Positions 17,034 through 43,335 of a stretch of DNA of 64,000 nucleotides are shown here, piece by piece; the first letter of the stretch is position 1; each line of letters begins with the position of its first letter. Position numbers and translations under genes: made by a program. Under the pieces are notes generated by a model. The model was not told the DNA's origin and did not search any database. It saw nothing but the letters and a program-made list of their open reading frames with translations. The stretch comes from Giardia intestinalis (lineage: Eukaryota): the NCBI GenBank assembly GCA_000002435.2, contig CM018790.1, one strand, 5' to 3'.

Positions 17034-17474
17034 ATGGTCCTGTTTAACATATGCGGCTGCAAGGGGAGTCAGAGGTCACAGTCTCAAACACAATACTCAC
17101 ACATCGTATTGGACGACAGTCTGTCGGACTACCCGTTCGACACCAGCAACAAGCTTGTCGGGGCGAGCAGGGCTCTCGACGCCGACGCCGCCTCGACGGT
17201 TGTCGTCAACGAAAGGCTGACGTCCATCGAGGCCAGAACCCTGTTGGGGCGGGTGCACACCATGGAGCTTCTGCTTGACCAGTCGGCCCACACGATTGGG
17301 GAGCTGCGCCGCGAAAACGCCAGGCTGCAGCGGGTCATCCTGTCCACAGACGCATCAACGCAGAAGATCAGGCAGAGGGAGGTCCCCAAGCAATGCGCAG
17401 CGGAGAGCATATCAGGGAAATTCACTCCAGAACTGCCACAAAGCCCTATTCGTATGCTCCCTCTTTCCTACTGA
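17034..17474 (+). CDS. Small hypothetical coiled-coil protein (GC3-rich)
   Basis: A 146-aa ORF with ATG at 17034 preceded by an AT-rich spacer. Third codon positions are strongly G/C. It has a coiled-coil-like stretch 'MELLLDQSAHTIGELRRENARLQRVILS'. It overlaps the convergent ankyrin gene by 7 bp. Competing small ORFs exist in the other frames. Confidence 0.4.
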   Translation: MVLFNICGCKGSQRSQSQTQYSHIVLDDSLSDYPFDTSNKLVGASRALDADAASTVVVNERLTSIEARTLLGRVHTMELLLDQSAHTIGELRRENARLQRVILSTDASTQKIRQREVPKQCAAESISGKFTPELPQSPIRMLPLSY

Positions 17475-18766: not shown

Positions 18767-18779
18767 TTTTATTTTCTCT

Positions 18780-24330: not shown

Positions 24331-24733
24331 CGCCCTCCAAGTGATGGTCTAGAGGACTCAACGCAGTGGTTCCCAAGATATGTGTCCTGAACAGAAGATT
24401 ATACGATCATATACCTCTGAATGTGCACAACATGATTCAATGCTTGCTTTAACGCCCTGTATTCTGATAGTCATAATTTATTTGCATGCCTTTAAAGAAC
24501 TTATCGTTTAAGCTGTTACCGATTTTGGTGCTGCAACTTATTTGCCGCATCTTATCACAAAAGCTTGATATCAAGATATCTTTCACAGACATGAAATAGT
24601 AACCCATGTGTCAGTTTGAATAAATATAAGCGTCCATAGCCTGGTGCTACCAAACAAGCGACGGTGGATGAGTAAATTGAAATGACAAAAGATATAAGAA
24701 GGAAGAGGTACGGCTAAAGATTTCAAAATTTTA

Positions 24734-27700: not shown

Positions 27701-27934
27701 ATTCAGACTGGTGGGTCTTCTTTGCAGACCCCTGCTTTGGCGACACCCAATGTACGGCCCATTTCCCTCGCCCAAACACATACTGAATTTGTCTATGGAG
27801 TAGTTACCCCATCTGTTCCTCTTAATAAGAGCATCTCAAATAAAGAGCCCCTAGCTACTATGCAAAAGCTCAACGAGTCCGGCAATCCAACTCCAACCAA
27901 AGCACCCACAGGAGCGTCACCACCTCAAAAATAA
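24734..27934 (+). CDS. Kinesin motor protein (N-terminal motor; kinesin-5/BimC-like architecture)
   Basis: It has a P-loop 'FAYGQTGTGKTYTM', switch I 'SSRSHS' and switch II 'LVDLAGSE'. The opening 'NIAVVVRARPLN' is typical of kinesin motor heads. The motor is followed by a long coiled-coil stalk, 1066 aa in total. 'caaaattttaATG' lies upstream. Confidence 0.9.
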   Translation: MTSAGNQAGPTASGKEVNIAVVVRARPLNTREVAHSSKSVVRINTSANVIEISQQNRQQAKTYFFDKVFDETASQEFFYRQVVSPVVKDFLDGFNCTLFAYGQTGTGKTYTMIGDQGHFTGDRRVKYVDFSTIPHAGMIPRVSNEIFSVLDSQNADYQVRVSHMEVYCEEIYDLLKDSSDEREALKLFEERSSYGVTPKGHRADEAKESKDSTALPSTNLLQPGDKAGGRLVILGLEEVLVKSPGEIMSLLIKSTENRRVAETKMNSSSSRSHSIFTICLIVKETAPSSNNNTDIDVIRISKLNLVDLAGSESAGKSGASGDRQQEASKINKSLLTLGRVINALTETKQHIPYRESKLTRLLQDSLGGRTKTCIIATITTADLALDETTNTLEYMSRAKKIKNLPEVTTKISGKSVLKEYSLEIKRLRELLSAQKDAQGGIFLTVENYDEMNEAARVNKAQIADLEARIQQATKEMERVTALLVSGEQKVEKLKLALNKTVEKVNELHEEKCRLYEKIVLGRDKEKINAAQLDHLRANGASLILENVFGLDSLRHMIDKSGISSAIIEIEKTVSACKAELSLFSKALTQVLDEHKRNLDGGLEKLLEKLMVPVLKSSAEVLGTSIPGLLETDLLGKLSSEMKSHLMEEARQGLSSFIVNPQIELLRKLTEGSTASLGLLDNLSSALDKSSESVQLLLQNILAQIQVFAEKETAFLSGLDSFLAREVEHRTHALVSNLEKQLQAAHKSVLSEFTEVLRSSTQELKDSLANQCNTQHGRIGVLTDTVDTWRAKDVPTVVERYADITRQLSELRSSMNLSQAIVSSHTDSVKDATSKYEELLERSFDKEVTGSIAAPITKSIKQLTQIGETLMDMMDAFTVQLGSISNTSHATLVERTAQLSHTYIQEGVVDKLLSGAVLDSTIRDSAPAISLLAADLEKDCLATADGASEGTFAMVTNMAVCSISDLISRFEASVASAFSTLVSNFHLTPVIQTGGSSLQTPALATPNVRPISLAQTHTEFVYGVVTPSVPLNKSISNKEPLATMQKLNESGNPTPTKAPTGASPPQK

Positions 27935-28026: not shown

Positions 28027-28785
28027 TTAGTAGCGACGATTACCGGATGAGTGTCTTCCCGCATATCGATCGGATCCATAGCGATCCTCATCTCTGTGGT
28101 AGTCATCGCGGCGGCGACCGCCATAGCCATCATCATTGCGGCTATCGTAGCGATTGCTACTGCGATCCTGCAGCGCCCTGCGCGTATCATATGCACGATC
28201 GTACTCGTCCCACCCGCCGAACAAGGCATTTTGGTGACTTCGGTCGAAAAGCTCGCGCATGGGCATTTTGCTCATTCTGTCGTCGAAGTCCCGAGTGAAG
28301 GAGTCTACCTCGTGCTCCTTGACATCGTAGAGGTCGCGACTCACGTCTTCACGACCCGTTCTGATGTCCCGCTCACGCTTATTCGATATGTACTTGTCGC
28401 CTATTGCTCTCGTATGCGTTTCTACGTCCTTCCCGTTTGAGACTATGCGCTGCTTAACCTCCTTCACGCCCCCGGGGAGCATGCACATACTGGTGCTGCT
28501 GACATAGTGTGTGCCCTCGGGGTCGTGTCGCGCATCCTCGAACATCTTATCCATGTTTCCAAAAATGCTTCGAGTACTCCCAAAGAAATCGTTCATGTGA
28601 TCCATCATTCGCTGGAACGAGGCCATGGGATTGAAGCCAGCGAGGAAGCCAGGCGGATCTCTCTCATCACGTGCGTCGTCATAGCGTCGTTGCGGCCTCT
28701 CACCAGGCCTTGTAACCTCTTCTGGACGACGAACATTGTATCCGTCAGAGGAGTTAGCGTGCTCAATGTTTGGCGTTCTACTCAT
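28027..28785 (-). CDS. Myeloid leukemia factor (MLF)-like protein with R/D/Y-rich tail
   Basis: 'MASFQRMMDHMNDFFGS' matches MLF1 'SFQTMDQMVSNMRNYM'. 'LPGGVKEVKQRIVSNGKDVETHTRAIGDKYISNKRE' matches MLF1 '[38 protein letters not shown]'. The C-terminus is RD/RY-rich low complexity. 'aaaaaataaaaATG' precedes the start. Confidence 0.5.
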   Translation of the reverse strand: MSRTPNIEHANSSDGYNVRRPEEVTRPGERPQRRYDDARDERDPPGFLAGFNPMASFQRMMDHMNDFFGSTRSIFGNMDKMFEDARHDPEGTHYVSSTSMCMLPGGVKEVKQRIVSNGKDVETHTRAIGDKYISNKRERDIRTGREDVSRDLYDVKEHEVDSFTRDFDDRMSKMPMRELFDRSHQNALFGGWDEYDRAYDTRRALQDRSSNRYDSRNDDGYGGRRRDDYHRDEDRYGSDRYAGRHSSGNRRY

Positions 28786-31463: not shown

Positions 31464-33461
31464 ATGCATGACAAAGACAGTGCGGAGAATGACGGCTATC
31501 TGTGGATGAACGCCATAGCTAGCGGGCGCTTGGAGCTGGTCGAGGCGTCAATGACCGAGCGCACCTGTCCCATGCCCAGTGGACGCCCCGCCATTATCAG
31601 TGCCGCAGAGGCCGGCAACACCCCTCTCGTTGCACTTCTGTTGTCTCAGGAAAAAGACCTGTGCGACAATGCTGGAAGAACCGCGCTCATGCACGCAGCC
31701 ATTCACAATCATCTAACCACGGCAAAAGAGTTGTTGTCGTTAGCGGGAAGACAGACCAATGACGGCATTTCTGCGCTCATGTACGCTGCCTGGCGCGGCC
31801 ATCTCCAATTGGTTGAGCTCCTTGCGTGCTTCAAGAATGGCGTGGAGCTTGGGCTACAGCGTGCCAACGGCGAAACGGCTCTCATGACTGCCATCCGAAT
31901 GGGACACAAGAGCTGCGCCTTAGTTCTAATAAAGTCCGACAGGGAGCTCAACAAGCAAATGGCTGACGGAACGACAGCCCTGATGTTAGCGAAGACAAGA
32001 GACATAGCCATGCACCTTCTGTGTGAAGCCAATTTACTAAGAAAAGGCGGCCTTACTGCACTCATGACAGGGGCCATGCAAGATCTTGACGAAGTCGTCG
32101 AGTTTCTTGCTCCATATCTACGAGACAAACGATCTCATGAGGGATATACTGCTCTCATGCTGGCCGCTCGACATGGCAACGCGAAAAGCGTAAAGATCTT
32201 AATTAAAAAGACTGGCGAGTTGGGACTACAGGACAAACAGGGTAGATCAGCGCTAATGCTAGCCGCACACCACGGATCCAAGGACTGTGTAGAGCTCCTC
32301 CTTAAGGGGGAAGGCCACCTCGTTGACTATAAAAATCGCAGAGCCTCAGCCTATACCACGAATGATGATCTGAGGCTTCTGTTGGGACTATTCAACAGGG
32401 GGGATGTAGATACAGAGGGCCTAACGACTCTCATGCATGCAGCCAGGCTTACGCGCCCTGAGGTAGTTGAGCAGCTCATCAGCACACAACTAAAAGCACA
32501 GGATTCCATTGGACGCACAGCTCTTATGTACGCATGCCTTTGTGGGCATGAGAGTTCGGCAGAAATGGTCCCCGTAGTCTCTATGCTGTCTGCAGAAGCA
32601 GGATTATGTGACTCTCGTGGGCGTTCTGCGCTCTTCTACCTTATAGATAACCCCCACGTGCACGGCCTTACTGGAGAAGCAAGAGCCAATATCTCAAGCA
32701 TACTACTGCTCCTAAGCTCTGAGCTCTCGTTGGTTGGGCCAAAGGGATTAAGGCCTCTCGATTATGCAATCACGCAGGAGAAGTATGGGGTAGGGGCTCT
32801 CATCTATAACTCAGCTATGGCACTTCATACTGGAAATCTTGTCTCAATCCGGGCAATAATAGTATCAATGTTAAACACCCTTGCTTGCGGGGTAGATGAA
32901 GAATACGAGGATAGCCCTATGAGGGAAGACGCAAGGGCACTGACAGACTTTATATCTTCTTCCTTTTGTGACGACGGGCCCTTTCTTGCAGAAGAGCTTG
33001 CCGATCAGATGGAGAGCATATGCAGAGATACAGAGCTGCCAGGATGTTGCATATGCCTGGAGCAAGAAGCTGAGGAGGTTATGGTGCCTTGCGGACACTT
33101 GACCTGTTGTAAGAGCTGCTTATCGAAGGTTCATAAGGTATGTCCAGTTTGTAGAGCCCCTGTTCAAACTACAATTGCTCCTCTCTTTCGGGAAGAAACA
33201 CAGCATAGTAAGGATTTGGGTGAATCTAGGCGCATGCCGCCGCGGTCTACAGTCATGTCAACATTGTCGCTTATTGCCCAAGAACCTCACCTTCAGGGCT
33301 CAGAACCACTTTCTCGGACATCTTCCCCATCCAGCGTCAGTAGTACGCGCTATAACTTAACCACAGGCTCACAGAGTCTACGCCTAGAAGTGGACTCCGA
33401 GATGGAACTGTCCGACTCCACTACTCGTTCTGAGTCGCCCTCAGTCGGCTGGCCTGCGTGA
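31464..33461 (+). CDS. Ankyrin-repeat protein with C-terminal C3HC4 RING finger (MIB/IAP-type E3-like)
   Basis: The track start at 31344 is a TTG and overlaps the RER1 3' end, so I use the first in-frame ATG, at 31464. There are many TALMxAA repeats ('GRTALMHAAIHNHLTTAKELL'). The C-terminal RING is 'CCICLEQEAEEVMVPCGHLTCCKSCLSKVHKVCPVCRAPV'. Confidence 0.75.
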   Translation: MHDKDSAENDGYLWMNAIASGRLELVEASMTERTCPMPSGRPAIISAAEAGNTPLVALLLSQEKDLCDNAGRTALMHAAIHNHLTTAKELLSLAGRQTNDGISALMYAAWRGHLQLVELLACFKNGVELGLQRANGETALMTAIRMGHKSCALVLIKSDRELNKQMADGTTALMLAKTRDIAMHLLCEANLLRKGGLTALMTGAMQDLDEVVEFLAPYLRDKRSHEGYTALMLAARHGNAKSVKILIKKTGELGLQDKQGRSALMLAAHHGSKDCVELLLKGEGHLVDYKNRRASAYTTNDDLRLLLGLFNRGDVDTEGLTTLMHAARLTRPEVVEQLISTQLKAQDSIGRTALMYACLCGHESSAEMVPVVSMLSAEAGLCDSRGRSALFYLIDNPHVHGLTGEARANISSILLLLSSELSLVGPKGLRPLDYAITQEKYGVGALIYNSAMALHTGNLVSIRAIIVSMLNTLACGVDEEYEDSPMREDARALTDFISSSFCDDGPFLAEELADQMESICRDTELPGCCICLEQEAEEVMVPCGHLTCCKSCLSKVHKVCPVCRAPVQTTIAPLFREETQHSKDLGESRRMPPRSTVMSTLSLIAQEPHLQGSEPLSRTSSPSSVSSTRYNLTTGSQSLRLEVDSEMELSDSTTRSESPSVGWPA

Positions 33462-33570
33462 CTACAAGGTTTCAACTGACATTGCGTTTAAGATTATAGG
33501 TAAGCAGCAAAATTTGAGAAAGGCGCAAAATTTTCATTTTTTGGGAAGATTAAAATCAAATTGGCACGAG

Positions 33571-35691
33571 ATGTCGAGCATCGAGCTTCCCGAAGGCTAC
33601 CGCTTCCAGACGACTTTGGCGGCAGGAGAGTACAGCATGCTCTTCCTGGCCATGGGAAACGACTACCAGGAGGTCGCTATCAAGAGCTTTGATTGCACGC
33701 AGATGGACGATGCACAAGTCTCGGAAATTCACCGCCAGGCCCTACTCCTGAAGTCCGTTAACCATCCGCTGGTACTCAAGGTATATGACGTCCAGATGAA
33801 CATTACGCGCACGCGCCTGCACGTGATCATGGAGCCCTTCTTCAAGACGCTTCAGAACCTCATCGACGAGTGTGAGAAGGCAGATCGCTCGCTCCTCAAC
33901 AACATCGTCTGCCAGGTGGCCTACCAGGTCATCAAGGGGCTCCACTATCTCTCCACCACCAACCATGTCGCGGTCAACGAGCAGGGACAGGAGTTCTCGC
34001 AGGACAAGATCTTCCACTCGTTTATCACACCGAACGACATTGTGTTCAACACCTCCGGAGTTGTGAAGCTTATGAACATCTTCCCCCTGGAGCATAGGAT
34101 GCTCTATGAAAAGGGCGACGCCAGCTTCCCGGGGCTCGCCTATGCGTCGCCTGAGTTTCTCAACAGGGAATACACCGAGTGCCCTGCCGATGTGTGGTCT
34201 GCGGGCGCGTGCATTTTCGCCATGGCTATGCGCAGGCCCCCGTTCAACTCTACCAACGTGGAGTCCCTAAGGGTGGAGGTCGAAGAAGGAAAGAAGGATG
34301 GCCTCGATATCAGCTTCAGCCGCGAGCTTGATGACATGCTCCAGCGCATGATGACGCCGGACCAGGGCTACAGGCCCACTGCCGGCGATCTCCTCAACGA
34401 CCCCTCAATCACCGAGGCGGCGTACGAGATCGAAGCGGGCGGCCTGCAAAACCCGTGGATGGCAATCGGCTTCTCCAGGCCGATCTCTCAGGCAGTGGCC
34501 CCTGTGTCCAACGACTCCCCGGTCCTCGCCCTGGATCCGAACAATGTGTACCCGATTGCCTTCGATGACAACAACCCATGGGAGAGGTACTGGCTTAACG
34601 CTCCTCGTCCAGATGCGACAGTCGACGCAGCCTCCTACACCAGGGGCACTATCGGCGAGGAAGTGGTTGCAAGGGTCCCGACACCACCGCCCGAGATGGA
34701 TATGTATGCCACGATGGATGATGCCTACAAGGGTGCCAACGATGAGTCCGCCTACTACGCCCCTGATAGCTATTATGGCAGTGCCCCTGCAGAGAGCGTC
34801 ATGGACGTCGCGCAAGTTGTGCGGGTGGAGACGCCTCCTCCAGAGCCTGATGCCTATGCTGACGCGGGCGCTCAGGGCAATGACTATAAGGTGGACGATG
34901 AGGCAGCGGCCTACGCACTCACCAGCTACTACGGTGATGCGCCTGCGGACAGCATCATGCTTACCGATGATGAGGTAGTCCACAGGATTCCCACACCACT
35001 GCCAGAAGGGGTGGCAGAGGTAGTTGTAAAGAGGAGCGCACCAGCCCCGGTCCCAACCCCAGCCCCGCTCATGGAAACGGCACCTGAGTCCAAGACTGTC
35101 ACTGCTCTTATGAACGCGGTTCGAACGGGCAAAAACGATGTTGTGCAGAGGCTCGTCGGAGAGCACTCCGGAGACATCGGATGGAAGACGCCCAACGAGA
35201 AGAAGACCGCCCTCATGGTCGCTGCGGATCTTGGGAACGCCGAGGCTGTCGAGTTGCTGGCGCCATGTGAGTGTGGTGAGGTAGACTCGGATGGCTGGCG
35301 AGCGATCGATTACGCCGCCCAAAACGGTAATGTCAGGGCCGTCAACGCTCTTCTTCAGTACGAGGGAGACATGCCTATCGTGCGCAAGGACGGATGCACG
35401 CCGCTCTTCCAGGCGGTGTTCTGGAACAAGCCGGACTGTGTGAGGGCACTCGCTCCTAAGTACGCCGGCGCAACGACGACAAGCCACTACTGGCAGGGGG
35501 AGGGCTTTACGGCCCTCATGGAGGCGGCTAAGTGCTGCCGCGTCGAGTGCGTTGAGATTCTGGCGCCCTATGAAGCGAAGATGACGGACAAAAAGGGTCA
35601 TACAGCACTCTACCACTGTGAGCACGCGTGGGACCATATTCTCGATGACGCCAAGAAGGAGGAATGCATCAGGATCCTCGAGAGGGCCTAG
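33571..35691 (+). CDS. NEK-like pseudokinase with C-terminal ankyrin repeats
   Basis: The track start at 33514 is a TTG, so I use the first in-frame ATG, at 33571 ('MSSIELPEGY'), which has AT-rich sequence upstream. Kinase-like N-terminus: beta3 'VAIK' is present, but 'HSFITPNDIVFN' replaces HRDLKPxN with no catalytic Asp and there is no DFG; 'ASPEF' and 'DVWSAGACIF' are retained. The C-terminal ankyrin module is 'PLFQAVFWNKPDCVRALAP...HYWQGEGFTALMEAAKCCRVECVEIL'. Confidence 0.8.
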   Translation: MSSIELPEGYRFQTTLAAGEYSMLFLAMGNDYQEVAIKSFDCTQMDDAQVSEIHRQALLLKSVNHPLVLKVYDVQMNITRTRLHVIMEPFFKTLQNLIDECEKADRSLLNNIVCQVAYQVIKGLHYLSTTNHVAVNEQGQEFSQDKIFHSFITPNDIVFNTSGVVKLMNIFPLEHRMLYEKGDASFPGLAYASPEFLNREYTECPADVWSAGACIFAMAMRRPPFNSTNVESLRVEVEEGKKDGLDISFSRELDDMLQRMMTPDQGYRPTAGDLLNDPSITEAAYEIEAGGLQNPWMAIGFSRPISQAVAPVSNDSPVLALDPNNVYPIAFDDNNPWERYWLNAPRPDATVDAASYTRGTIGEEVVARVPTPPPEMDMYATMDDAYKGANDESAYYAPDSYYGSAPAESVMDVAQVVRVETPPPEPDAYADAGAQGNDYKVDDEAAAYALTSYYGDAPADSIMLTDDEVVHRIPTPLPEGVAEVVVKRSAPAPVPTPAPLMETAPESKTVTALMNAVRTGKNDVVQRLVGEHSGDIGWKTPNEKKTALMVAADLGNAEAVELLAPCECGEVDSDGWRAIDYAAQNGNVRAVNALLQYEGDMPIVRKDGCTPLFQAVFWNKPDCVRALAPKYAGATTTSHYWQGEGFTALMEAAKCCRVECVEILAPYEAKMTDKKGHTALYHCEHAWDHILDDAKKEECIRILERA

Positions 35692-35765
35692 GAGCTCTAG
35701 ACTCCCGGAGAGTAAAGCGCCTGCGTGGCTTTGTTAAAATTCACAAATTACAGAAAAAAGTGAGG

Positions 35766-36521
35766 ATGGACCCCATGGAGGTTGAGGTTATCCGTACGCC
35801 GTCCGACTCAGACATAGCTGGTTCCGGGGGGCCCGCGACTGCGGTGCCCATGAGCAGGGCCGCTCCAGCGCCCCAGGCCACAGGGGAAGATCCTCAGACG
35901 CTCCCGAGGCTGACCACGCTTGTCAACCCTGACGAAGGGGTGACGGAGCTCATGGTTGCTGCTCGCCGCGGAGACGAAGAGACCGTCATGGCACTCTTGG
36001 ACGAGCAGGCATGCCAGGTCGATGCACGAGGGCGTACAGCACTCATGTATGCCGCCGAGATGGGCAGATCATCCATTGTGGAGCTGCTTAAGGACCGCGA
36101 GGCAGGCATCCAGGACTCGTTTCTGTGGACGGCGCTCTTCTATGCGGCGCAAAACGGGCACCTCGTCTGCGTCTCCATGCTTGCACCTCTTGAAGCAAAG
36201 ATACAGCGCAAAGATGGCTGCACTGCCCTCTTCCTAGCAGTCTTTTGGAACCACATCGAGTGCGCCCGCATCCTCGCTCCTCTAGAGGCGGGGATCACAA
36301 CAAACTACAAACACTGGCAGGGCGGAGAGTACACGGCCCTCATGGAAGCAGCGAGGTGGGCCCGTTTGGAATGCATTGAACTTCTTGTCGAGCAGGAGCA
36401 CGGTATGAAGGACGCGTCTGGAAATAGGGCAATTGACTACGCCCGTGCTCCCTACGCACACGTCCCGGAAGATCGCAAAGAGCAGTCCATACAGCTTCTT
36501 GAGCAGTATGAGCGCGACTAG
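35766..36521 (+). CDS. Short ankyrin-repeat protein (kinase-less paralog of neighbouring NEK-ANK genes)
   Basis: The listed ORF ATG at 35664 overlaps the upstream gene. I prefer the internal ATG at 35766 ('MDPMEVEV'), which is preceded by 'acagaaaaaagtgagg'. It contains only the shared module: 'TALMYAAEMGRSSIVELL...ALFLAVFWNHIECARILAPLEA...KHWQGGEYTALMEAARWARLECIELL'. Confidence 0.7.
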   Translation: MDPMEVEVIRTPSDSDIAGSGGPATAVPMSRAAPAPQATGEDPQTLPRLTTLVNPDEGVTELMVAARRGDEETVMALLDEQACQVDARGRTALMYAAEMGRSSIVELLKDREAGIQDSFLWTALFYAAQNGHLVCVSMLAPLEAKIQRKDGCTALFLAVFWNHIECARILAPLEAGITTNYKHWQGGEYTALMEAARWARLECIELLVEQEHGMKDASGNRAIDYARAPYAHVPEDRKEQSIQLLEQYERD

Positions 36522-36641
36522 ATCGCTGCCGGCGCATTCTCTAGCATCCCCTGCCGCTGAGTGAACATCTGTGACCACAGTAAAGCGAATTTAAAATGGA
36601 ATTTGGGGTTTTTGGTCAAACCGCTTAAAGCGGGCAATAAA

Positions 36642-38189
36642 ATGGACGGCCAGGCCTTTGCCATGGACTACCAGCCCGTTGCGGACATCTACTCCACCGG
36701 CGTGCACGAGATTGCCTCTGCACGCTCGACCAGGGATCCTAGCTCGAACATCGCTCTCTTCACCTGCTCCTATGGCGGGTTTGACGAGTCGGACCGAGCT
36801 ACCCTCAGGAGGCGCACGGGCGAGTACTGCGAGTTCAACAACTCGTCGACCGCTGTCCAGCCGGATCTTCTTAGCCCTTATCTGGCGCGTCTGTCCCACT
36901 ACTTCAACGACGATGCGTCTGCCCTCCTGACCATGGGTCTTCCTTACGGAGTTAACACCCTCTACGACGTGATGATGGCGAAGGCTCAGTCATACAGCAA
37001 CTTCACCGAGGAGGAGGTCTGGCGCGTGGTTGCGGCCCTCTGTGATGCCGCGCGCTTCATGCACAGCGAGGAGAAACCCGACACAGAACTGGAGGAGTTT
37101 GCGCACCTTGGCATCCACCCTGCCAACATCTTCCTGTACGCTGACGGCGCCCGTATCAGGCTTGGGTACCCGTACATCTGCCCCACAATGAGTTTCAAGA
37201 ACCCAGGCAATTACAGGGCCTTCCAGCAGCTCGGCGAGGCGCACTTCATGGCGCCGGAGTTCATCGAGGCTGGCGCCAAGGGCTCGTGTCCTTGTGACAT
37301 ATTCTCTATCGGTATGGTTGGGTATGCCATGATGACAAACTCGACTGCCTGGAGCGCGAGCAATATCAACGATCTGCAGGGAGAGGTGTACACTCGCGGG
37401 GCCATCAGCCTGCCATACGACGGCCGATACAGCCAGGACCTCGTTGATCTCATCAACTCTATGCTTTCCTTCGACTCGTCTGCCCGCCCCAAGGCAGAGC
37501 AGCTCTGTGCAAGCGGAAAGATTGCGCAGTGCATCGCGGAGAACGGAGACGCTCCCACGATGGCTCCTCCGAAGATGACCCGCGATATCGTCCAGCCACC
37601 CAGCGGGCTCACAGACCTCATGATCGCTGCCAGAGACGGCGACCTCAGTGGCGTCAGGAACAACCTCCACCAGGCAGGGTCCACAGACCAGTGCGGCCGC
37701 ACCGCTCTCATGTACGCGGCAGAGCACGGGTACGCCGATTGTGTCCGCGCGATCGTCTCTGACGCAATGGGCCACGGCGAGGTTCGCCTCCAGGACAAGT
37801 ACATGTGGACTGCAACCATGTATGCTGCCCAGAACGGACACGCCGATTGCGTCTCGCTTCTCCACGAGGAGTTCGGGATGCAGCGTCGCGACGGTGCCAC
37901 GGCGCTCTTCACTGCCGTCTTCTGGAACCGTTGCGAGTGCGTCAAGGTGCTCGCCCCGACTGAGGCCATCATCTCCACCAACGACAGGTACTGGCAGGGC
38001 GAGCGCTACACGGCTGCAATGGAGGCCGCAAGGTGGGGACGTCCCGAGTGTCTCCAGGAGCTTCTTGGGTACATCGACAAGTACACTACCGATAATAATG
38101 GGAACGATGTGGCGTACTATGCCATGCACCCATGGGAGCACGTGTCTGCAGATAAGAGCAGCAGAGTGCGTGAGGTCCTGAACCTGTAA
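36642..38189 (+). CDS. NEK-like pseudokinase with C-terminal ankyrin repeats
   Basis: The track start at 36561 is a GTG, so I use the first in-frame ATG, at 36642 ('MDGQAFAMDY'), preceded by 'gcaataaaATG'. The catalytic loop is 'AHLGIHPANIF' (HRDLKPANI with D->G and K->H). 'APEFIE' and 'DIFSIGMVGY' are retained. The C-terminal module is 'ALFTAVFWNRCECVKVLAPTEA...RYWQGERYTAAMEAARWGRPECLQELL'. An AGTAAAT motif lies after the stop. Confidence 0.8.
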   Translation: MDGQAFAMDYQPVADIYSTGVHEIASARSTRDPSSNIALFTCSYGGFDESDRATLRRRTGEYCEFNNSSTAVQPDLLSPYLARLSHYFNDDASALLTMGLPYGVNTLYDVMMAKAQSYSNFTEEEVWRVVAALCDAARFMHSEEKPDTELEEFAHLGIHPANIFLYADGARIRLGYPYICPTMSFKNPGNYRAFQQLGEAHFMAPEFIEAGAKGSCPCDIFSIGMVGYAMMTNSTAWSASNINDLQGEVYTRGAISLPYDGRYSQDLVDLINSMLSFDSSARPKAEQLCASGKIAQCIAENGDAPTMAPPKMTRDIVQPPSGLTDLMIAARDGDLSGVRNNLHQAGSTDQCGRTALMYAAEHGYADCVRAIVSDAMGHGEVRLQDKYMWTATMYAAQNGHADCVSLLHEEFGMQRRDGATALFTAVFWNRCECVKVLAPTEAIISTNDRYWQGERYTAAMEAARWGRPECLQELLGYIDKYTTDNNGNDVAYYAMHPWEHVSADKSSRVREVLNL

Positions 38190-38265
38190 CGTGTCGACTC
38201 GTTAGTAAATCAATCTAAGCTTTACTGCGCAGTTAAAAAAGGCGGACTTTTTTAAAAAGAAATTA

Positions 38266-40599
38266 ATGGCTGCGGTTCAACTCCCTGCCCCCTACGTCTG
38301 GACAGCAGATATATGTAGGACGACCCTTGGATGCATTTGTCAGGCAATGGACACGAGTAACAACACCGAGGTGACGGTCAAGGTTGTGAATTACTCACAA
38401 CTCTCCCAGGAGGAGGCGAACGCCCTGGCCCACGAGGCGCGCGCCCTTTTATACCTCAATCACGATCACGTTGTCAAGACATATAACACAATCATAGCTC
38501 CCGAGACTTACACAATATACATTATCATGGAGCCGTGTCTAGGAACTTTGGGGACGGCAATACAGGTCATGAGCGCATACGGCCAGCAGATTCCCGAGGA
38601 GCACATCTGGTACATCGCTGCCGAGGTCGGGTCTGCTCTTAAGTATCTCCACGAGCCACATGAGAAGATGATGATTGACTGGTACTCTGCTGAAATCCCT
38701 ATAGGGCCTGTCGTTCATGGGTATCTCACGCCTTCCGACATCTTTATTTCTCGCGATGGAAAGTGCAAGGTTGGTGGAATAAGCCCGACGCAGTCGGCAT
38801 GGGAGATCCGCTCGGGCAACGCTGACCTGGGCAGACTTTTCCTCCAAGCCCCAGAGATCTTAGATATGCAGCCGAATATCACAGAGAAGGTCGATATCTG
38901 GTCGTTGGGGACGACTCTCTTCTTTATCGCTGCCTTTCAATCAGTTTGGATCTCCAGTGACTACGCTAGTATAGTCGCTGAGATAAAACACGGGAAGATC
39001 CAGCGCCTCCCCGATAGGTATTCCTGCGAGCTTGACGGCTTTATAGCTCGGTGTTTGCAGGTGGATCCGATGTACCGTCCATCCATTTTGGAGCTGCTTT
39101 TGGAGCCCCAGATCAACGACGTCATGCGTTCAGTGTGCGAGGGGTCTGTTCCGTCTATGCGCTATCTCCTTGGGCTATCTGAGGAGTCCGAGTCTCAGCC
39201 GCCCTCTATGCAGCCTGAGGAGCCAGCGGCACCTGCTGCGCCAATCCAAGAGCAGCCCGAAGAGCAACCTCAGAGAGACCCGATGCAGGTGGAGCGCATC
39301 TCTACACCCATGTCTGGGTCGCTCACCGCTGAGCCCAGGGCCCCTGAAAATCTTGAGCTGCCTCCTTTGCCGACAGACACTCCGACAGTTTCTACTCTTG
39401 AACCTTCCGAAATGGCTGTTTATGCACCTTCCGAGACTCGTACATTTGCCACTGAGCCGGCGACGTCTGACTTTGTAGATGCCGCTGAAAAGATTGTTAG
39501 CCTCATCGCTAAAGAGGCGTGTGCTCCCTCTGTTCCTGCGGAGGACATACGCGAGCCCGTCGACATGAATATCCTCCCAGCAAGCGTCACAGCGTCTATC
39601 CAGCCCGTTCCCGACCCCACTCCAGATGTTATAGCAGAGAAGATTGTCTCTGAAATCATTACTGCCGCCGATGATGATCTTTACAATAACACTGTGAGCG
39701 TTGTTGAAAGGCTGGAGGAGCCGGAGGACTCTGACGTGGGTGTAGTCTGTACAGCACTGCAGGATCCATCTCTCGTTGAGTCTGTGAAGAGACTTGAAGA
39801 GCCTGCTGTTGAGTACGATGTTCCTGTTGAGCCGGTCTACGCCACCGCTCCAAGCGCCTTTGCCAAGCCAGACACAGGCGTGGCCGAGGTCCTGAAGGAG
39901 GAGGAACCTGCCGTTGAAGCCAACACGTATGAGGCAGAGCCCGTTCTTGCTGCACCCATCCAGCCTGACGTGTATGCCAATAAGACCTTTGACTCCTCAG
40001 TTGTGCGCCCTGTAGAGGGTGTAACCCAGCTAATGCTTTGCGTTGAGAGAGGCGATCTTGAGGGTGCCAAGTATTATATCAATGAGGCAAGGTCCTCTGA
40101 CTCCTTCGGAAAGACTGCTCTGATGCGTGCCGCTGAACTTGGCAATTCGGAGCTAGTCGAGCTTCTTGTCGGATACGAGGCTTGCCTGCAGGACATTGAC
40201 GGATGGACTGCGCTCATGTTTGCCGTCCACAGCCGTAATACAGAGTGTGTTCGTCTCCTTGAGCCTCGTGAGCACGGGATGAGGCTCGCCAACGGACAAA
40301 CTGCACTGATGATGGCCTCCTTCTGGAACAATTCCGATGCCGTCTCCATACTAGCTTCGAGGGAATCGCGCGCGAGAACGACGGAGAGGTACTTTGAAGG
40401 CGAGGGATTCACAGCGCTCATGGAGGCTGCAAGGTGGGGACGCCACGATATTGTGAAGCTGCTTCTTCCGCACGAGGGCGACATGCGTGATTCCAGCGGG
40501 AAGACCGCACTTGATCACGCCCGCATTTCTGCCCATTCAGTTAGTCAGGTTGACAGAGACGAGTGCATTGCCATTCTCAGTGGTTCATCCGCCTGTTGA
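38266..40599 (+). CDS. NEK-like pseudokinase with acidic/Pro-rich linker and C-terminal ankyrin repeats
   Basis: ATG at 38266 is preceded by 'cttttttaaaaagaaattaATG'. The kinase-like N-terminus has 'VVHGYLTPSDIFIS' replacing HRDLKPxNI (D->Y, K->T). 'APEIL' and 'DIWSLGTTLF' are retained. The C-terminal module is 'TALMRAAELGNSELVELL...RYFEGEGFTALMEAARWGRHDIVKLL'. An AGTGAAT motif lies 3 nt after the stop. Confidence 0.8.
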   Translation: MAAVQLPAPYVWTADICRTTLGCICQAMDTSNNTEVTVKVVNYSQLSQEEANALAHEARALLYLNHDHVVKTYNTIIAPETYTIYIIMEPCLGTLGTAIQVMSAYGQQIPEEHIWYIAAEVGSALKYLHEPHEKMMIDWYSAEIPIGPVVHGYLTPSDIFISRDGKCKVGGISPTQSAWEIRSGNADLGRLFLQAPEILDMQPNITEKVDIWSLGTTLFFIAAFQSVWISSDYASIVAEIKHGKIQRLPDRYSCELDGFIARCLQVDPMYRPSILELLLEPQINDVMRSVCEGSVPSMRYLLGLSEESESQPPSMQPEEPAAPAAPIQEQPEEQPQRDPMQVERISTPMSGSLTAEPRAPENLELPPLPTDTPTVSTLEPSEMAVYAPSETRTFATEPATSDFVDAAEKIVSLIAKEACAPSVPAEDIREPVDMNILPASVTASIQPVPDPTPDVIAEKIVSEIITAADDDLYNNTVSVVERLEEPEDSDVGVVCTALQDPSLVESVKRLEEPAVEYDVPVEPVYATAPSAFAKPDTGVAEVLKEEEPAVEANTYEAEPVLAAPIQPDVYANKTFDSSVVRPVEGVTQLMLCVERGDLEGAKYYINEARSSDSFGKTALMRAAELGNSELVELLVGYEACLQDIDGWTALMFAVHSRNTECVRLLEPREHGMRLANGQTALMMASFWNNSDAVSILASRESRARTTERYFEGEGFTALMEAARWGRHDIVKLLLPHEGDMRDSSGKTALDHARISAHSVSQVDRDECIAILSGSSAC

Positions 40600-40644
40600 T
40601 TAGTGAATTTGCGCTGAACTGTACTTGAACTAAACCTTTTAAAA

Positions 40645-43335
40645 ATGGCGGCAGGGTTGAACGGCGAGGAGCGCGGCGACACCGCTCTGATTAGAGCAGC
40701 AAAGGCTAACAATCTCAGAGCAGTCATGGCCACCTTTCCAGAGGATGCGTGTAAAACTGACCACACAGGCCGCACGGCCCTCAGCTGGGCTACCGAGCGG
40801 GGATATGTTAATATTGTCCGGTACTTGATACACAAGGAGGCGAGGATTGTTGACAGGAAGGGTGTCACTGCGCTAATGATCGCCGTAAAGCGCCAGAACA
40901 TCTCCTGCGTCATGTCTCTTTACGCATACGAGTCCGGGTTCCAGGATAACCACGGCTGGTCTGCGCTTCACTGGGCAGTTTTCTATGGCTGCGCAAACAT
41001 TGTCCAGTACTTGGCTCCGTTGGAGGCTGGGCTCATCACTAACAATGGAACCACCGCCTTGATGTGCGCTGCCCAAAAGGGGTATGCAAACATCATCCCC
41101 TATCTTCTAGCCGCTGGAAGGGAGCTTAGAATGGTTGATAATTTGAAGAAGAGCGCACTCATCTATGCAGTAGAAGCAGGGCACGAGGATATAGTGCAGC
41201 TCTTAGCTGAGAAGGAGGCGGGAATAACTGACATGCTCGGACGATCGGCTCTCATGTATGCTGTGATAAATAAGAGGCCGGCGTGTGTCTCTATTCTTGC
41301 TCCGTATGAAGCGGGCATAGTTAGTAGTGAGGGGATGACTGCGCTTATGTATGCCGTGCAACAGCATGAGTGGCACATTGCGATGATTTTGGCCAAGCAA
41401 AAGGCAGAGCTAGGGAAGCAGGCTGCAAAGGAAGTTACTGCGCTTATGCTCCTGATGGACGCGAAGGATCCTCCGTCCGAAGTCGTGCTGGCACTTGGAG
41501 ACCGTCTGATCCCTTATGAAGCTAAGCTATCCGACTCTGCGGGCAATACAGCCCTTATGCGCGCAGCAATGCGGGGGGACATTAAGATGGTTGAAAGACT
41601 TGTCACCCACGAGGCGGGAATGCAGTCGTTGGCGGGGAAGACAGCTATGATGCTAGCCAGCCACGCTGGGCATGATGAGATTGTAAGATTACTTTCACCC
41701 ATAGAGAAGGGTCTCGTTGACGCCATGGGGCGGACTGCATTAATGTACGCCACAAGGGCAAACAATGATAACGTGATACGATACCTCATTCCGTTTGAAA
41801 GCAGAATGACTGATTTCTATGGCAAGACGGCGTTGATGTGCGCTGCAAAGAATAATTATATGCCGATTCTTAAGTTTCTTGCGTCAAAGGAGTGCAAGAT
41901 TAAAGATCACAAGGGCCGGACGGCTCTGATGCGGGCAGCCGCTAGCGGGCACATAGAGTCAGTAGCATTCTTGGCTCGGTATGAATCGCAACTTCAGTCG
42001 GAGAGTGGTTTAACTGCCTTGATGTTTGCTGCCGTCAATGGCCATTCAACCGTGGCGCGAGTTCTCGCCAAAACAGAGGCCGGGATGCGCGATTCTACAG
42101 GACGGACTGCCCTTCTCCTTTCGCTGGTTAACAATCATGAAAATGTCGCCCGTGCGCTTCTTGTATTCGAGCATCAACTTGCTGACGATCAAAAGCGGAC
42201 CGCCCTGATGTATTCTGCCCAAACAGCATTCGACTCGGTGACTCGGTCACTTATAGCCCTGGATAATCTGGCTAAAAGACAAGATGATGTAGGTCGCACG
42301 GCACTAATGTATGCTGTCACTTCTTCGCAGAGAAATGCTATCAGAGCGCTGCTTCCCAAGGAAAATTGCATGGTTGACAAGAACGGACGGACTGCACTCA
42401 TGTATGCCGCGCGTGCGTGCCTGTCTCCGGGGGTCCCGGGGCTCATCGAGAGTGAAGCAGGAATACACGATAACGACGGTCTAACGGCCCTCATGTATTG
42501 CTGTCTCAGCAAAAACTACTCGCTAGCGGATCTTTTGTTATCAACGGAGGTCTGCATGCGTGACAAGCGGGGACAGACAGCGCTCATGTATGCTGCCAAG
42601 GAGGGTTGCAAGGAGCTCGTCAATAAGTTGCTTCCACACGAAGCGGACATGCGTGACCATAGCGGGAAGACCTCATTGATCTATGCTGTTGAAAACGGGC
42701 ACTCTCATCTGGTATCGTCCCTGGCGTCGGAGAACAGGCTTTCCGATAAGCATCTTCAAACGCCATATGACTACGCAATGCGTCTGCGCTGCACAAAGTC
42801 TGTACAGTCTCTTGTCAGCATCTTAACAGATACGTCCACTCTCGTGCTAAGTGCCAGTGTTTGTTTACAATTCATCCGAAACCTTTCTCCGATTGTTTCG
42901 TATATGCTCTGGAAGAGTAAGAACACTCTCTATGCGATTCACGCACACACCTTATTGGATACCCTGATGTCATTTTTGTTTGATGATCTAGACATTAGTC
43001 TTCTGCGTTCTGAGGAAGAACAACGATGTGGTGAGAGCCTCATGCATCTCTGCACCATCAACGATAGTTTCATGGCCTCGTCGTCTTCGTTCTGGCTCCG
43101 CGGAGAAGCTCGGCGTCGGTACATGCACCGGACGCGGACTATGGAGATCTCTGATGCTTCACATGACTCCGTCTGCGCAGTGTGCTTAGACAACCATCCC
43201 AATGTCGTCTTTCTGCCATGCAGACACATGGTTGTCTGCAGTGCTTGCTTGACGTCTATGGAGCGTCACTGTCCTTATTGTCGAAAATATGTCTGTCGTC
43301 ACTTCACTATAAACGAAGAAGACATACTCTGCTAG
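40645..43335 (+). CDS. Large ankyrin-repeat protein (more than 20 repeats) with C-terminal C3HC4 RING finger (MIB/IAP-type E3-like)
   Basis: ATG at 40645 is preceded by 'aaccttttaaaaATG'. It has a continuous run of 'GRTALMYAxxxxHxxxVxxL' repeats. The terminal RING is 'CAVCLDNHPNVVFLPCRHMVVCSACLTSMERHCPYCRKYV'. Confidence 0.8.
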   Translation: MAAGLNGEERGDTALIRAAKANNLRAVMATFPEDACKTDHTGRTALSWATERGYVNIVRYLIHKEARIVDRKGVTALMIAVKRQNISCVMSLYAYESGFQDNHGWSALHWAVFYGCANIVQYLAPLEAGLITNNGTTALMCAAQKGYANIIPYLLAAGRELRMVDNLKKSALIYAVEAGHEDIVQLLAEKEAGITDMLGRSALMYAVINKRPACVSILAPYEAGIVSSEGMTALMYAVQQHEWHIAMILAKQKAELGKQAAKEVTALMLLMDAKDPPSEVVLALGDRLIPYEAKLSDSAGNTALMRAAMRGDIKMVERLVTHEAGMQSLAGKTAMMLASHAGHDEIVRLLSPIEKGLVDAMGRTALMYATRANNDNVIRYLIPFESRMTDFYGKTALMCAAKNNYMPILKFLASKECKIKDHKGRTALMRAAASGHIESVAFLARYESQLQSESGLTALMFAAVNGHSTVARVLAKTEAGMRDSTGRTALLLSLVNNHENVARALLVFEHQLADDQKRTALMYSAQTAFDSVTRSLIALDNLAKRQDDVGRTALMYAVTSSQRNAIRALLPKENCMVDKNGRTALMYAARACLSPGVPGLIESEAGIHDNDGLTALMYCCLSKNYSLADLLLSTEVCMRDKRGQTALMYAAKEGCKELVNKLLPHEADMRDHSGKTSLIYAVENGHSHLVSSLASENRLSDKHLQTPYDYAMRLRCTKSVQSLVSILTDTSTLVLSASVCLQFIRNLSPIVSYMLWKSKNTLYAIHAHTLLDTLMSFLFDDLDISLLRSEEEQRCGESLMHLCTINDSFMASSSSFWLRGEARRRYMHRTRTMEISDASHDSVCAVCLDNHPNVVFLPCRHMVVCSACLTSMERHCPYCRKYVCRHFTINEEDILC

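What the first reader, a model, noticed from the sequence alone, without database searches (positions are those of the whole stretch)
31464..43335. Head-to-tail array of six ankyrin paralogs sharing a conserved C-terminal module, including a kinase-less member
Six consecutive same-strand genes (ANK-RING, NEK-ANK, ANK, NEK-ANK, NEK-ANK, ANK-RING) are separated by only ~45-105 bp. Four of them (starts at 33571, 35766, 36642 and 38266) end with the same ~4-repeat ankyrin module: '...TALMYAA... -> (A/P)LF.AVFWN...C(V/A)..LAP.EA -> (H/R)YWQGE.(Y/F)TALMEAARWGR.EC...'. The 251-aa gene at 35766 consists of this module only. This looks like local tandem duplication in which an ankyrin-only 'Protein 21.1'-type gene arose from a NEK-ankyrin gene by loss of the kinase half. 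It is a direct snapshot of how the two largest diplomonad gene families interconvert. Because the genes are co-directional and tightly spaced, they may be co-regulated.
Basis: seen in the sequence. Interest (0 to 1): 0.6.

Follow-up and report, generated by a model that had tools for sequence, protein, structure and literature searches.

The report
Old Giardia pseudokinase-ankyrin gene cluster
Four neighbouring Giardia genes, three dead-kinase scaffolds and one kinase-less sibling, share a distinctive ankyrin tail from local duplication, but the cluster is ancient, conserved and already annotated rather than a fresh evolutionary snapshot.

Summary
The window is Giardia intestinalis WB. The six same-strand genes exist as described: ANK-RING (GL50803_15412), NEK-ANK (15411), ANK-only (15410), NEK-ANK (15409), NEK-ANK (11390) and ANK-RING (probably 11389).

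The four middle genes end in one ~196-aa module of six ankyrin helix pairs. It carries FWN, YWQGE and ARWGR signatures. After an exhaustive search of 1.84 billion proteins, each module's best relatives are the other three. The signatures occur nowhere else among the 150 top hits.

Local duplication is therefore supported. Kinase loss is the more parsimonious origin of the 251-aa gene, because it nests among the NEK modules, but this is unproven: support is moderate and no kinase remnant survives.

"Snapshot" is wrong. The array is syntenic in assemblages A, B and E. Published orthology tables show an ANK-only ortholog between NEK orthologs in G. muris. The kinase-less gene is the most constrained member (module 94% A vs B, 100% A vs E).

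All three kinases are catalytically dead. Published work places them together at peripheral endocytic compartments, and all four proteins are abundant in vesicle proteomes. Each gene has its own poly(A)-like signal, and the tight spacing is ordinary.

These are known genes, with a modest new link between them.

The parts
31464..33461 (+). g1: ankyrin repeats plus a C-terminal C3HC4 RING (665 aa). It is GL50803_15412, 'Ankyrin repeat protein 2', a Mind-bomb-like E3. It does not carry the shared module.
   Evidence: ORF and Pfam. Exact match to XP_001707034.1. ID from the Xu 2020 table. Listed as a MIB1-like E3 in PMC7029713. Best single-domain score to the g3 module is 51 bits.
33571..35691 (+). 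g2: dead NEK pseudokinase (aa 1-300), a Pro/Ala-rich linker with three ~50-aa internal repeats, and the shared ANK module (aa 506-706, nt 35086-35688). It is GL50803_15411, the published 'pseudokinase Gl15411'.
   Evidence: Pfam Pkinase+Ank. The N-terminus matches the Manning 2011 table row GK292, 'Dead Nek - missing D166, D184'. Published links to clathrin assemblies, peripheral vacuoles and alpha-1 giardin.
35766..36521 (+). g3: kinase-less member (251 aa). It has a 55-aa disordered leader (nt 35766-35930) and the shared ANK module (nt 35931-36518). It is GL50803_15410, 'Ankyrin repeat protein 1', formerly misnamed 'Ser/Thr protein kinase'.
   Evidence: Pfam finds ankyrin only. In the AF2 model, residues 1-55 have pLDDT below 50 and residues 56-251 form six helix pairs with pLDDT above 90. 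The older 285-aa upstream extension contains stop codons in assemblage B. ID and length (252 including stop) are in the Xu 2020 table. The protein is detected in the EV proteome.
36642..38189 (+). g4: highly divergent dead NEK pseudokinase plus the shared ANK module (aa 319-515, nt 37596-38186). It is GL50803_15409. Manning's ankyrin-repeat deletion (aa 351-386) corresponds to nt 37692-37799.
   Evidence: Pfam. Manning's primer matches 37800-37823 exactly. Table row GK175, 'Dead Nek - missing K72, D166, D184'. Localisation at peripheral vacuoles.
38266..40599 (+). g5: dead NEK pseudokinase, a long fast-evolving linker, and the shared ANK module (aa 582-777, nt 40009-40596). It is GL50803_11390.
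   Evidence: Pfam. Manning row GK209, 'Dead Nek - missing D166, D184'. Localisation at peripheral vacuoles. The linker is 47% identical between assemblages A and B, against 75-80% for the domains.
40645..43335 (+). g6: about 25 ankyrin repeats plus a C-terminal RING (896 aa). It is probably GL50803_11389, a MIB2-like E3. It does not carry the shared module.
   Evidence: Pfam. Best single-domain score to the g3 module is 64 bits. The ID is inferred from its number being adjacent to 11390 and from the E3 list.
36243..36389 (+). Signature core of the module in g3: the FWN turn of repeat 4, the extended loop TTNYKHWQGGEYTALM, and the EAARWAR turn of repeat 5. The equivalent stretches are in g2 (about 35419-35565), g4 (about 37920-38066) and g5 (about 40321-40467).
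   Evidence: Alignment. The regular expressions hit only the four genes and their orthologs among the 150 best global hits. DNA repeat family D4. In the model, the loop at residues 175-190 is longer than the other loops, and the inter-helix turns are 3 residues at 161-163 and 198-200.
35692..35765 (+). g2-g3 spacer (74 bp). It has an AGTAAA poly(A)-like signal 20 nt after the g2 stop and an A-rich stretch before the g3 ATG. There is no room for a kinase remnant.
   Evidence: Both elements are conserved in assemblage B.

Best explanation
This is an ancient, conserved tandem gene family of Giardia. An ancestral gene encoding an N-terminal NEK-type (pseudo)kinase and a C-terminal six-hairpin TALM-ankyrin module duplicated locally into four genes. 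One copy (g3, GL50803_15410) kept only a short disordered leader and the ankyrin module. This happened either by a 5' deletion or by a partial duplication that began in the linker, and the copy acquired its own short AT-rich promoter and start codon.

This occurred before G. intestinalis and G. muris diverged. All copies have since been kept by purifying selection, and the kinase-less copy is under the strongest constraint.

The three kinase domains are catalytically dead, so all four proteins act as non-enzymatic scaffolds. The shared ankyrin module is inferred to be their common protein-docking surface. Published work places the three pseudokinases at the peripheral endocytic compartments, within the clathrin and alpha-giardin interactome. 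The kinase-less protein is inferred to be a stand-alone adaptor using the same kind of surface; it appears on the published list of ventral-disc proteins.

Each gene is transcribed on its own. The two flanking ANK-RING genes are ordinary Mind-bomb-like E3 members of the wider TALM-ankyrin superfamily and are not part of the module family.

Shown here: the anatomy, the specificity of the module, mutual best relatedness, synteny, the constraint pattern and the dead catalytic motifs. Inferred: the direction of change (loss), the docking role of the module and the adaptor role of g3.
For: - **Architecture and identity:**
- **Module alignment:** 39-48% pairwise identity, with 44 invariant columns.
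- **Exhaustive search:** phmmer against 1.84e9 representatives, rescored by best single domain. Module-to-module scores are 105-172 bits. The best outsider scores 80-104 bits. Those identified by name are G. intestinalis 21.1 proteins and G. muris ANK or NEK proteins, so both proteomes were covered.
- **Signatures:** the motifs occur only in the four genes and their orthologs and not in other ankyrin genes of the window.
- **Tree:** the four are monophyletic at 65%, g2+g3+g4 at 74%, and g3 outside the NEKs at 1.4%.
- **Kinase domains:** g2 and g5 are mutual near-best hits at 87 bits.
- **Synteny:** the full array is present in an assemblage-B-like contig and in P15, from consecutive accessions on one contig. 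The G. muris order is NEK(11390 ortholog) - ARP-1(15410 ortholog, 215 aa) - NEK(15411 ortholog) - ARP-2 - Rer1.
- **Constraint:** the g3 module has dN 0.030 (94% identity A vs B; 196/196 identical A vs E). The NEK modules have dN 0.11-0.16. CCT-beta has 0.023.
- **Dead kinases:** Manning 2011 table and the sequences themselves (HSF/MNI, HLG/YPY, HGY/GIS).
- **Function from the literature:** 15411, 15409 and 11390 lie at peripheral vacuoles in one interactome. Gl15411 is found in clathrin assemblies and cross-links to alpha-1 giardin. Deleting one ankyrin repeat of 15409 changes its localisation. The three array NEKs are the most abundant NEKs in the EV proteome, and 15410 is detected there at a similar level.
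- **Transcription:** four of the five spacers inside the array have an AGTRAA poly(A)-like signal, and four are A/T-rich just before the ATG.
Against: - The tree is neighbour-joining on 186 columns with moderate bootstraps. The fastest-evolving member (g5) could be drawn to the outgroup. g3 is the best hit of all three others, which also fits an ancestral-like, ANK-only prototype.
- The g3 leader is not significantly similar to the NEK linkers: 34/300 to 215/1000 composition-preserving shuffles reach the observed score. No kinase remnant exists.
- The g4 kinase domain has no detectable special relation to those of g2 and g5 (23-25 bits).
- The exhaustive list has a floor of about 71 bits and was seeded with g3 only.
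- I could not obtain the G. muris sequences, so their place in the tree is untested.
- g3 is listed as a disc protein, whereas the NEKs are at peripheral vacuoles. A shared module therefore does not simply mean a shared address.
Confidence: 0.6

Rival explanations
1. Kinase gain rather than loss. The ancestral gene was an ANK-only protein like g3, and one or more duplicates acquired an N-terminal NEK pseudokinase by fusion with a neighbouring kinase gene.
For: - g3 is the closest relative of each of the other three modules and evolves most slowly, so it may look ancestral.
- The nearest outgroup modules come from a mixture of ANK-only and NEK proteins, so outgroups do not polarise the character.
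- The g4 kinase is unrelated in score to those of g2 and g5.
- Row 15409 is absent at the syntenic place in the G. muris orthology table.
- Manning 2011 states that ankyrin arrays are gained and lost within subfamilies.
Against: - The topology needed (g3 sister to all the NEK modules) has 1.4% bootstrap support.
- The g2 and g5 kinase domains are homologous near-best hits, so a kinase-plus-module ancestor existed for at least those two.
- If g3 is nested, gain requires two or more fusions, against a single loss.
Confidence: 0.22
2. A recent or ongoing decay event, which is the 'snapshot' reading. On this view g3 is a young truncated copy on its way to becoming a pseudogene, or a freshly born 21.1 gene.
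For: g3 is short, lies between full-length paralogs and has a compact 74-bp upstream spacer.
Against: - g3 is intact and syntenic in assemblages A, B and E.
- It has a 215-aa ANK-only positional ortholog in G. muris.
- Its module is the most conserved in the array (dN 0.030; identical between A and E).
- The paralogs differ by 52-60% at protein level, and the signature-core DNA repeat is only 61-71% identical.
- The protein is detected abundantly by mass spectrometry.
Confidence: 0.03
3. The shared tail is a generic C-terminal ankyrin cap found throughout Giardia NEK and 21.1 proteins. On this view the four genes are not a special family, and their adjacency is a coincidence in a genome with more than 450 such genes.
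For: - The long loop 'TTN....G.G[YF]TALM.AA' and the terminal cap are also seen in the G. muris proteins P0159, P0195, P0168 and P0236.
- TALMEAA occurs in 14 other proteins among the 150 best hits.
- The window holds eight TALM-ankyrin genes.
Against: - FWN, [YH][WF][QE]G[EG] and A[RK]W[GA]R are confined to the four genes and their orthologs, apart from a single stray FWN.
- Every module scores higher to the other three than to any outsider.
- The other ankyrin genes in the window score 42-85 bits.
Confidence: 0.05
4. The six genes form one co-transcribed, operon-like unit, which would explain the tight same-strand spacing.
For: Same strand, with a median spacer of 76 bp against 177 bp elsewhere in the window. 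The G. muris orthologs share a cyst-high expression profile.
Against: - Four of the five spacers inside the array carry an AGTRAA poly(A)-like signal a few to about 40 nt after the stop. Four of the five are A/T-rich just before the ATG; g3->g4 is only weakly so.
- Seven of 19 other spacers in the window are 103 bp or shorter.
- From established knowledge of Giardia, genes are monocistronic with very short promoters.
Confidence: 0.05

Closest known systems
Giardia NEK expansion with TALM-ankyrin tails (Manning et al. 2011, Genome Biol 12:R66). Here it is the 'Nek-Unclassified, dead' entries GK292 (15411), GK175 (15409) and GK209 (11390).
   Same: N-terminal kinase fold followed by TALM-type ankyrin repeats. 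Loss of K72, D166 or D184. The ankyrin region affects localisation; for 15409 this was tested on this very gene.
   Different: That paper treated the three as unrelated 'unclassified' NEKs on the basis of their kinase domains. Their adjacency, and a shared and specific C-terminal module, were not described in the text or tables I could read.
Protein 21.1 / ARP-1 family (ankyrin-only proteins of Giardia; Xu et al. 2020 classification)
   Same: g3 is ankyrin-only, has TALM repeats, and is annotated 'Ankyrin repeat protein 1'. Manning 2011 had already suggested that NEK and 21.1 form one family.
   Different: g3 is unusually short (six hairpins) and is demonstrably a sibling of three specific NEK genes. 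Its older name, 'Ser/Thr protein kinase', reflects that tail similarity. It is far more conserved than typical family members.
Pseudokinase Gl15411 and the PV/PEC-associated NEKs (Zumthor 2016, as cited in Cernikova 2020, PMC7058353; Balmer 2023, PMC9928461)
   Same: These are the same genes (g2, g4, g5). They are described as catalytically inactive scaffolds at clathrin and alpha-giardin assemblies of the peripheral endocytic compartments.
   Different: Those papers do not mention ankyrin repeats, paralogy or genomic adjacency: the word 'ankyrin' occurs zero times in PMC9928461. GL50803_15410 is not mentioned in the main text; the supplementary co-IP tables were not available to check.
Mind-bomb-type ANK-RING E3 ligases (the ARP-2 class of Giardia)
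   Same: g1 and g6 have ankyrin repeats followed by a C-terminal C3HC4 RING. Both are listed as MIB1/MIB2-like (PMC7029713).
   Different: There are no MIB/HERC2 or ZZ domains. The resemblance is limited to ANK plus RING. They lack the family-specific module.

Membership tests
Giardia NEK-ankyrin pseudokinases (g2, g4, g5) | Protein kinase fold at the N-terminus | tested here: met
   Pfam Pkinase scores of 76.8, 60.4 and 85.6 bits, above the 31.7-bit cut-off.
Giardia NEK-ankyrin pseudokinases (g2, g4, g5) | Catalytic residues K72, D166 (HRD) and D184 (DFG) present, which would indicate an active kinase | tested here: not met
   The Manning 2011 table records g2 and g5 as missing D166 and D184, and g4 as missing all three. 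The sequences read HSF..MNI, HLG..YPY and HGY..GIS. They are therefore pseudokinases.
Giardia NEK-ankyrin pseudokinases (g2, g4, g5) | C-terminal array of TALM-type ankyrin repeats | tested here: met
   Pfam Ank_2, Ank and related families. TALM motifs are visible in the alignment.
Protein 21.1 / ARP-1 (g3) | Ankyrin repeats only, with no kinase, RING or other domain | tested here: met
   Pfam returns only ankyrin families. AF2 shows a 55-aa disordered leader and a six-hairpin solenoid. The upstream ORF extension is not conserved.
ARP-2 / Mind-bomb-like ANK-RING E3 (g1, g6) | Ankyrin repeats plus a C-terminal C3HC4 RING finger | tested here: met
   zf-C3HC4_3 scores of 42.9 and 43.3 bits, above the 27-bit cut-off, at the C-terminus. 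E3 activity was not tested.
Locally duplicated (tandem) gene family (g2-g5) | Members are each other's closest relatives genome-wide | tested here: met
   Scores among the four are 105-172 bits, against 80-104 bits for the best outsider, after an exhaustive search. Caveats: the candidate list was seeded with g3 and has a floor of about 71 bits.
Locally duplicated (tandem) gene family (g2-g5) | Monophyly in a phylogeny with outgroups | tested here: inconclusive
   65% neighbour-joining bootstrap. No maximum-likelihood method was available and the G. muris orthologs were not included.
Locally duplicated (tandem) gene family (g2-g5) | Kinase domains co-duplicated with the tails | tested here: inconclusive
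   g2 and g5 are mutual near-best hits at 87 bits. The g4 kinase is too divergent to place, at 23-25 bits.
Recent duplication or 'snapshot' of family interconversion | Lineage-specific, young copies with high DNA identity, or decay | tested here: not met
   The signature-core DNA repeat is 61-71% identical. The array is conserved in assemblages A, B and E and, per Xu 2020, in G. muris. g3 is under strong constraint.
Co-transcribed gene cluster | No transcript-end or transcript-start signals between genes | tested here: not met
   AGTRAA signals occur in four of the five internal spacers, and four of the five are A/T-rich just before the ATG. This is sequence evidence only; no RNA data were available.

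The most novel reading that the evidence does not exclude
The shared six-hairpin module, with a stacked-tryptophan turn in repeats 4 and 5 and an extended YWQGE loop, is a dedicated docking domain for alpha-giardins (annexins) and the clathrin-associated coat of the peripheral endocytic compartments. The four paralogs would then be a matched set. Three pseudokinase scaffolds each bring a different dead-kinase surface. One ultra-conserved kinase-less protein (15410) either competes with them for the same site or carries the module to giardin-rich structures such as the ventral disc. On this reading, a single genomic cluster encodes the core scaffolds of Giardia's unconventional secretion and endocytic interface.
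Probability: 0.25. Interest if true: 0.5.

Novelty: already known. Interest (0 to 1): 0.3.

Why it matters
Three of these genes are already studied as the 'inactive NEK scaffolds' of Giardia's peripheral endocytic and unconventional-secretion machinery. The published work I could read treats them as independent hits.

Recognising that they are tandem paralogs, defined by one specific ankyrin module, gives a concrete and testable handle. The module can be deleted, swapped or used alone as bait. It also nominates the untested, highly conserved GL50803_15410 as a fourth member of the set.

The cluster is a clean, datable example of NEK and 21.1 genes being one family. However, the event is old, so it says little about how the families turn over today.

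Tried and rejected
1. **Leader versus linker.** I looked for homology between the g3 leader and the NEK linkers as a footprint of truncation. The eye-catching match 'MDPMEVEVIRTP' versus g5 'DPMQVERISTP' is not significant against composition-preserving shuffles, either over whole proteins or over the 60 aa just upstream of the modules.

2. **Word-indexed search with g3**. It missed even g2, g4 and g5, so it could not be used for the genome-wide test.

3. **Profile query for the exhaustive search.** Leave-one-out trials showed that multi-repeat proteins such as g6 outscore true members. I therefore used a single 100-aa query and rescored the hits by best single domain.

4. **G. muris synteny anchored on CCT-beta.** That locus is rearranged in G. 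muris and in two unknown Giardia-like contigs. The Rer1 search did not return the G. muris protein. I therefore could not fetch the G. muris array DNA and relied on the tables of Xu 2020.

5. **Metagenome scan for further module carriers.** It returned 80 loci, none with the signature pair.

6. **Manning supplement as a source of tails.** Protein sequences are cut at 400 residues, so motif searches there return nothing.

7. **AFDB fold search.** This library was unavailable. The PDB search gives only generic DARPin and gankyrin matches.

8. **Apparent '15410' and '15411' hits in Hagen 2011.** These were artefacts of P15 gene IDs, GLP15_4102 and GLP15_4117.
Full report
**Identity of the window.** Eight proteins encoded around the finding were looked up by exact sequence. 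Seven are identical to Giardia intestinalis WB (ATCC 50803) proteins KAE8301945-53 / XP_0017070xx. The exception is g6, whose exact sequence is not in the collection.
- From the supplementary kinome table of Manning et al. 2011, g2 is GL50803_15411, g4 is GL50803_15409 and g5 is GL50803_11390. The primer used there to delete an ankyrin repeat of 15409 matches window 37800-37823 exactly.
- From the orthology table of Xu et al. 2020, g3 is GL50803_15410 and g1 is GL50803_15412.
- g6 is probably GL50803_11389.

- Six + strand ORFs lie at the stated coordinates, with spacers of 109, 74, 120, 76 and 45 bp.
- Pfam gives Ank+RING, Pkinase+Ank, Ank only, Pkinase+Ank, Pkinase+Ank and Ank+RING.
- The tails of g2-g5 align over about 196 residues with 44 invariant columns and 39-48% pairwise identity. 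Their identity to g1 and g6 is 30-35%.
- A DNA repeat search returns one 84-nt family with exactly four copies, one per module gene, at 61-71% identity. The similarity is therefore old, and no long high-identity DNA tract links the copies, so there is no sign of recent gene conversion.
- An AlphaFold2 model of g3 (pLDDT above 90 over residues 56-251) shows a disordered 55-residue leader and six helix pairs. The loop between repeats 4 and 5 is extended. The inter-helix turns are widened where the FWN and ARW tryptophans sit. Against the PDB it is a generic ankyrin solenoid.

- The word-indexed search was too insensitive to use.
- Local trials showed that multi-repeat proteins inflate whole-protein HMMER scores.
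- I therefore sent the last 100 residues of g3 to the exhaustive search of 1.84 billion representatives. I rescored the 150 best hits by best single domain, using all four modules as queries.
- Each module's top relatives are the other three, at 105-172 bits. The best outsiders score 80-104 bits.
- The ten nearest outsiders looked up by name include Giardia 21.1 / ARP proteins and NEKs from G. intestinalis and G. muris; two are unnamed. Both proteomes were therefore covered.
- The signatures FWN, [YH][WF][QE]G[EG] and A[RK]W[GA]R are confined to the four genes and their orthologs, apart from one stray FWN.
- The two other ankyrin genes in the window lack the module. So do 80 metagenome loci.
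- One nuance: the extended loop 'TTN....G.G[YF]TALM.AA' and the terminal cap also occur in several G. muris proteins. The general cap architecture is therefore wider than this locus, while the specific residues are local.
- Caveats: the candidate list was seeded with g3 and has a floor of about 71 bits.

**Direction of change.**
- A bootstrapped neighbour-joining tree of the modules with 22 outgroup segments gives these supports: the four monophyletic 65%, g2+g3+g4 74%, g3+g2 45%, g3+g4 39%, and NEK modules excluding g3 1.4%.
- The g2 and g5 kinase domains are mutual near-best hits at 87 bits. The g4 kinase domain is too divergent to place.
- Loss of the kinase half is therefore the more parsimonious reading. 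It is not demonstrated, for four reasons:
  - g3 is the slowest-evolving member and the best hit of all three others.
  - Long-branch effects could misplace g5.
  - The g3 leader has no significant similarity to the NEK linkers.
  - The 74-bp upstream spacer leaves no room for a remnant.
- The older 285-aa gene model that earned g3 the name 'Ser/Thr protein kinase' is not conserved. The extension contains three stop codons in assemblage B.

**Age and constraint.**
- An assemblage-B-like contig carries the whole array in the same order, next to Rer1 and CCT-beta. In P15 the orthologs have consecutive accession numbers on one contig.
- Table S1A of Xu et al. 2020 lists G. muris positional orthologs in this order: NEK (11390 ortholog), ARP-1 (15410 ortholog, 215 aa), NEK (15411 ortholog), ARP-2 (15412 ortholog), Rer1, kinesin-5.
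- There is no row for 15409 at that place. A neighbouring-numbered NEK, GMRT_12950, appears only in the expression table. Whether g4 is ancient therefore remains open.
- I could not fetch the G. muris DNA. The CCT-beta anchor is rearranged there, and the Rer1 search did not return the G. muris protein.
- Between assemblages A and B, the g3 module has dN 0.030 (94% identity). The NEK modules have dN 0.11-0.16, and CCT-beta has 0.023. dS is saturated.
- Between assemblages A and E, the g3 module is 196/196 identical, against 91% for g2 and 93% for g4.
- The pseudokinase domains are also conserved, at 70-84% between A and B. The linkers evolve fastest.
- This is an old, constrained gene set, not a snapshot of ongoing interconversion.

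**What the proteins do.**
- All three kinases are listed as dead in Manning's table, and their HRD and DFG positions are visibly substituted.
- Manning et al. showed that deleting one ankyrin repeat of 15409 (window 37692-37799) shifts it partly to the plasma membrane.
- Balmer et al. 2023 recovered 15411, 15409 and 11390 as interactors of unconventionally secreted proteins. They localised all three to the peripheral vacuoles / endocytic compartments. That paper does not mention ankyrin repeats, paralogy or adjacency.
- Gl15411 is also part of the clathrin assemblies and cross-links directly to alpha-1 giardin.
- In a 2026 vesicle proteome, 15409, 15411 and 11390 are by far the most abundant NEKs. 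15410 is present at a similar level.
- Xu et al. list 15410 among ventral-disc proteins.
- My inference is that the shared module is the common docking surface of a matched set of non-enzymatic scaffolds, and that g3 is a stand-alone version. The different reported address of g3 shows that the module alone does not fix the location.

**Co-regulation.**
- Four of the five spacers inside the array carry an AGTRAA poly(A)-like signal soon after the stop codon; g1->g2 has none. Four of the five are A/T-rich just before the ATG; g3->g4 is only weakly so. This fits separate transcripts.
- The array's median spacer is 76 bp, against 177 bp elsewhere in the window. Seven of 19 other spacers are 103 bp or shorter. 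The spacing is tight but ordinary.
- Co-function is supported by the literature above. The G. muris orthologs also share a similar cyst-high expression profile. The spacing itself is not evidence.

**Verdict.**
- The genes are annotated and three of them have been studied experimentally. Manning 2011 proposed that NEK and 21.1 form one family with mobile domains. Xu 2020 tabulated the orthology.
- What appears not to have been stated is that the three PV/PEC pseudokinases and 15410 form one tandem subfamily defined by a specific ankyrin module, and that the kinase-less member is the most conserved. This is a useful but modest addition.

Noticed in passing
window 18956-24733: A 5.8-kb stretch with no clear gene and unusually high G+C (0.55-0.62, against about 0.47 nearby). 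It has overlapping ORFs of 120-409 aa on both strands. One of them (21299-22108, minus strand, 269 aa) looks protein-like. There are no Pfam or Rfam matches.
   Followed up: partly
window 34650-35090 (g2 aa ~360-505): The g2 linker contains three degenerate ~50-aa internal repeats of the form 'VV.R[VI].TP.PE.D.YA....YYG.AP..S.M'. They are not detected as a DNA tandem repeat. A similar short 'V.[VR]I.TP' motif occurs at the start of g3 and in the g5 linker, but this is not statistically significant.
   Followed up: partly
window 14114-15631 (+): A 505-aa ankyrin protein whose N-terminal 200 residues give a sub-threshold Pkinase match (21 bits, against a 31.7-bit cut-off). It is probably one of the cryptic, highly degenerate NEK-ankyrin genes. 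It lacks the module studied here.
   Followed up: partly
window 17468-18955 (-) and 11268-11921 (-): Another ankyrin-only gene with very regular 'DG.TALM.AA.NGH.DCV.LLLEKEGGM' repeats, and a small RING-only gene. Together with the array, the 64-kb window holds eight TALM-ankyrin genes and one RING-only gene.
   Followed up: no
window 40645-43335: The exact 896-aa translation of g6 is not in the 15-billion-protein collection, although all five neighbours are. The annotated model may use a different start, or this copy may differ by a residue.
   Followed up: no
window 36642-36682: A 21-nt unit is repeated twice at the very start of g4 (80% match). The assemblage-B ortholog was called with a shorter N-terminus (509 aa, against 515), so the g4 start codon may be uncertain.
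   Followed up: no
P0164; loci L004 and L005: Sequences from unnamed Giardia-like or diplomonad organisms in public read archives and metagenomes. One is an 817-aa NEK-ankyrin protein with a complete DFG and VIVK lysine but HGN in place of HRD; its kinase domain is as close to g5 as the g2 kinase domain is. The others are two contigs with CCT-beta about 72-73% identical to Giardia but without the array next to it.
   Followed up: partly
window 28027-28785 (-), 24734-27934 (+): The neighbours upstream of the array are a disc-associated protein (GL50803_16424, with a weak Mlf1IP match) and kinesin-5. Per Xu 2020, these stay linked to Rer1 and the array in G. muris, whereas CCT-beta does not.
   Followed up: partly
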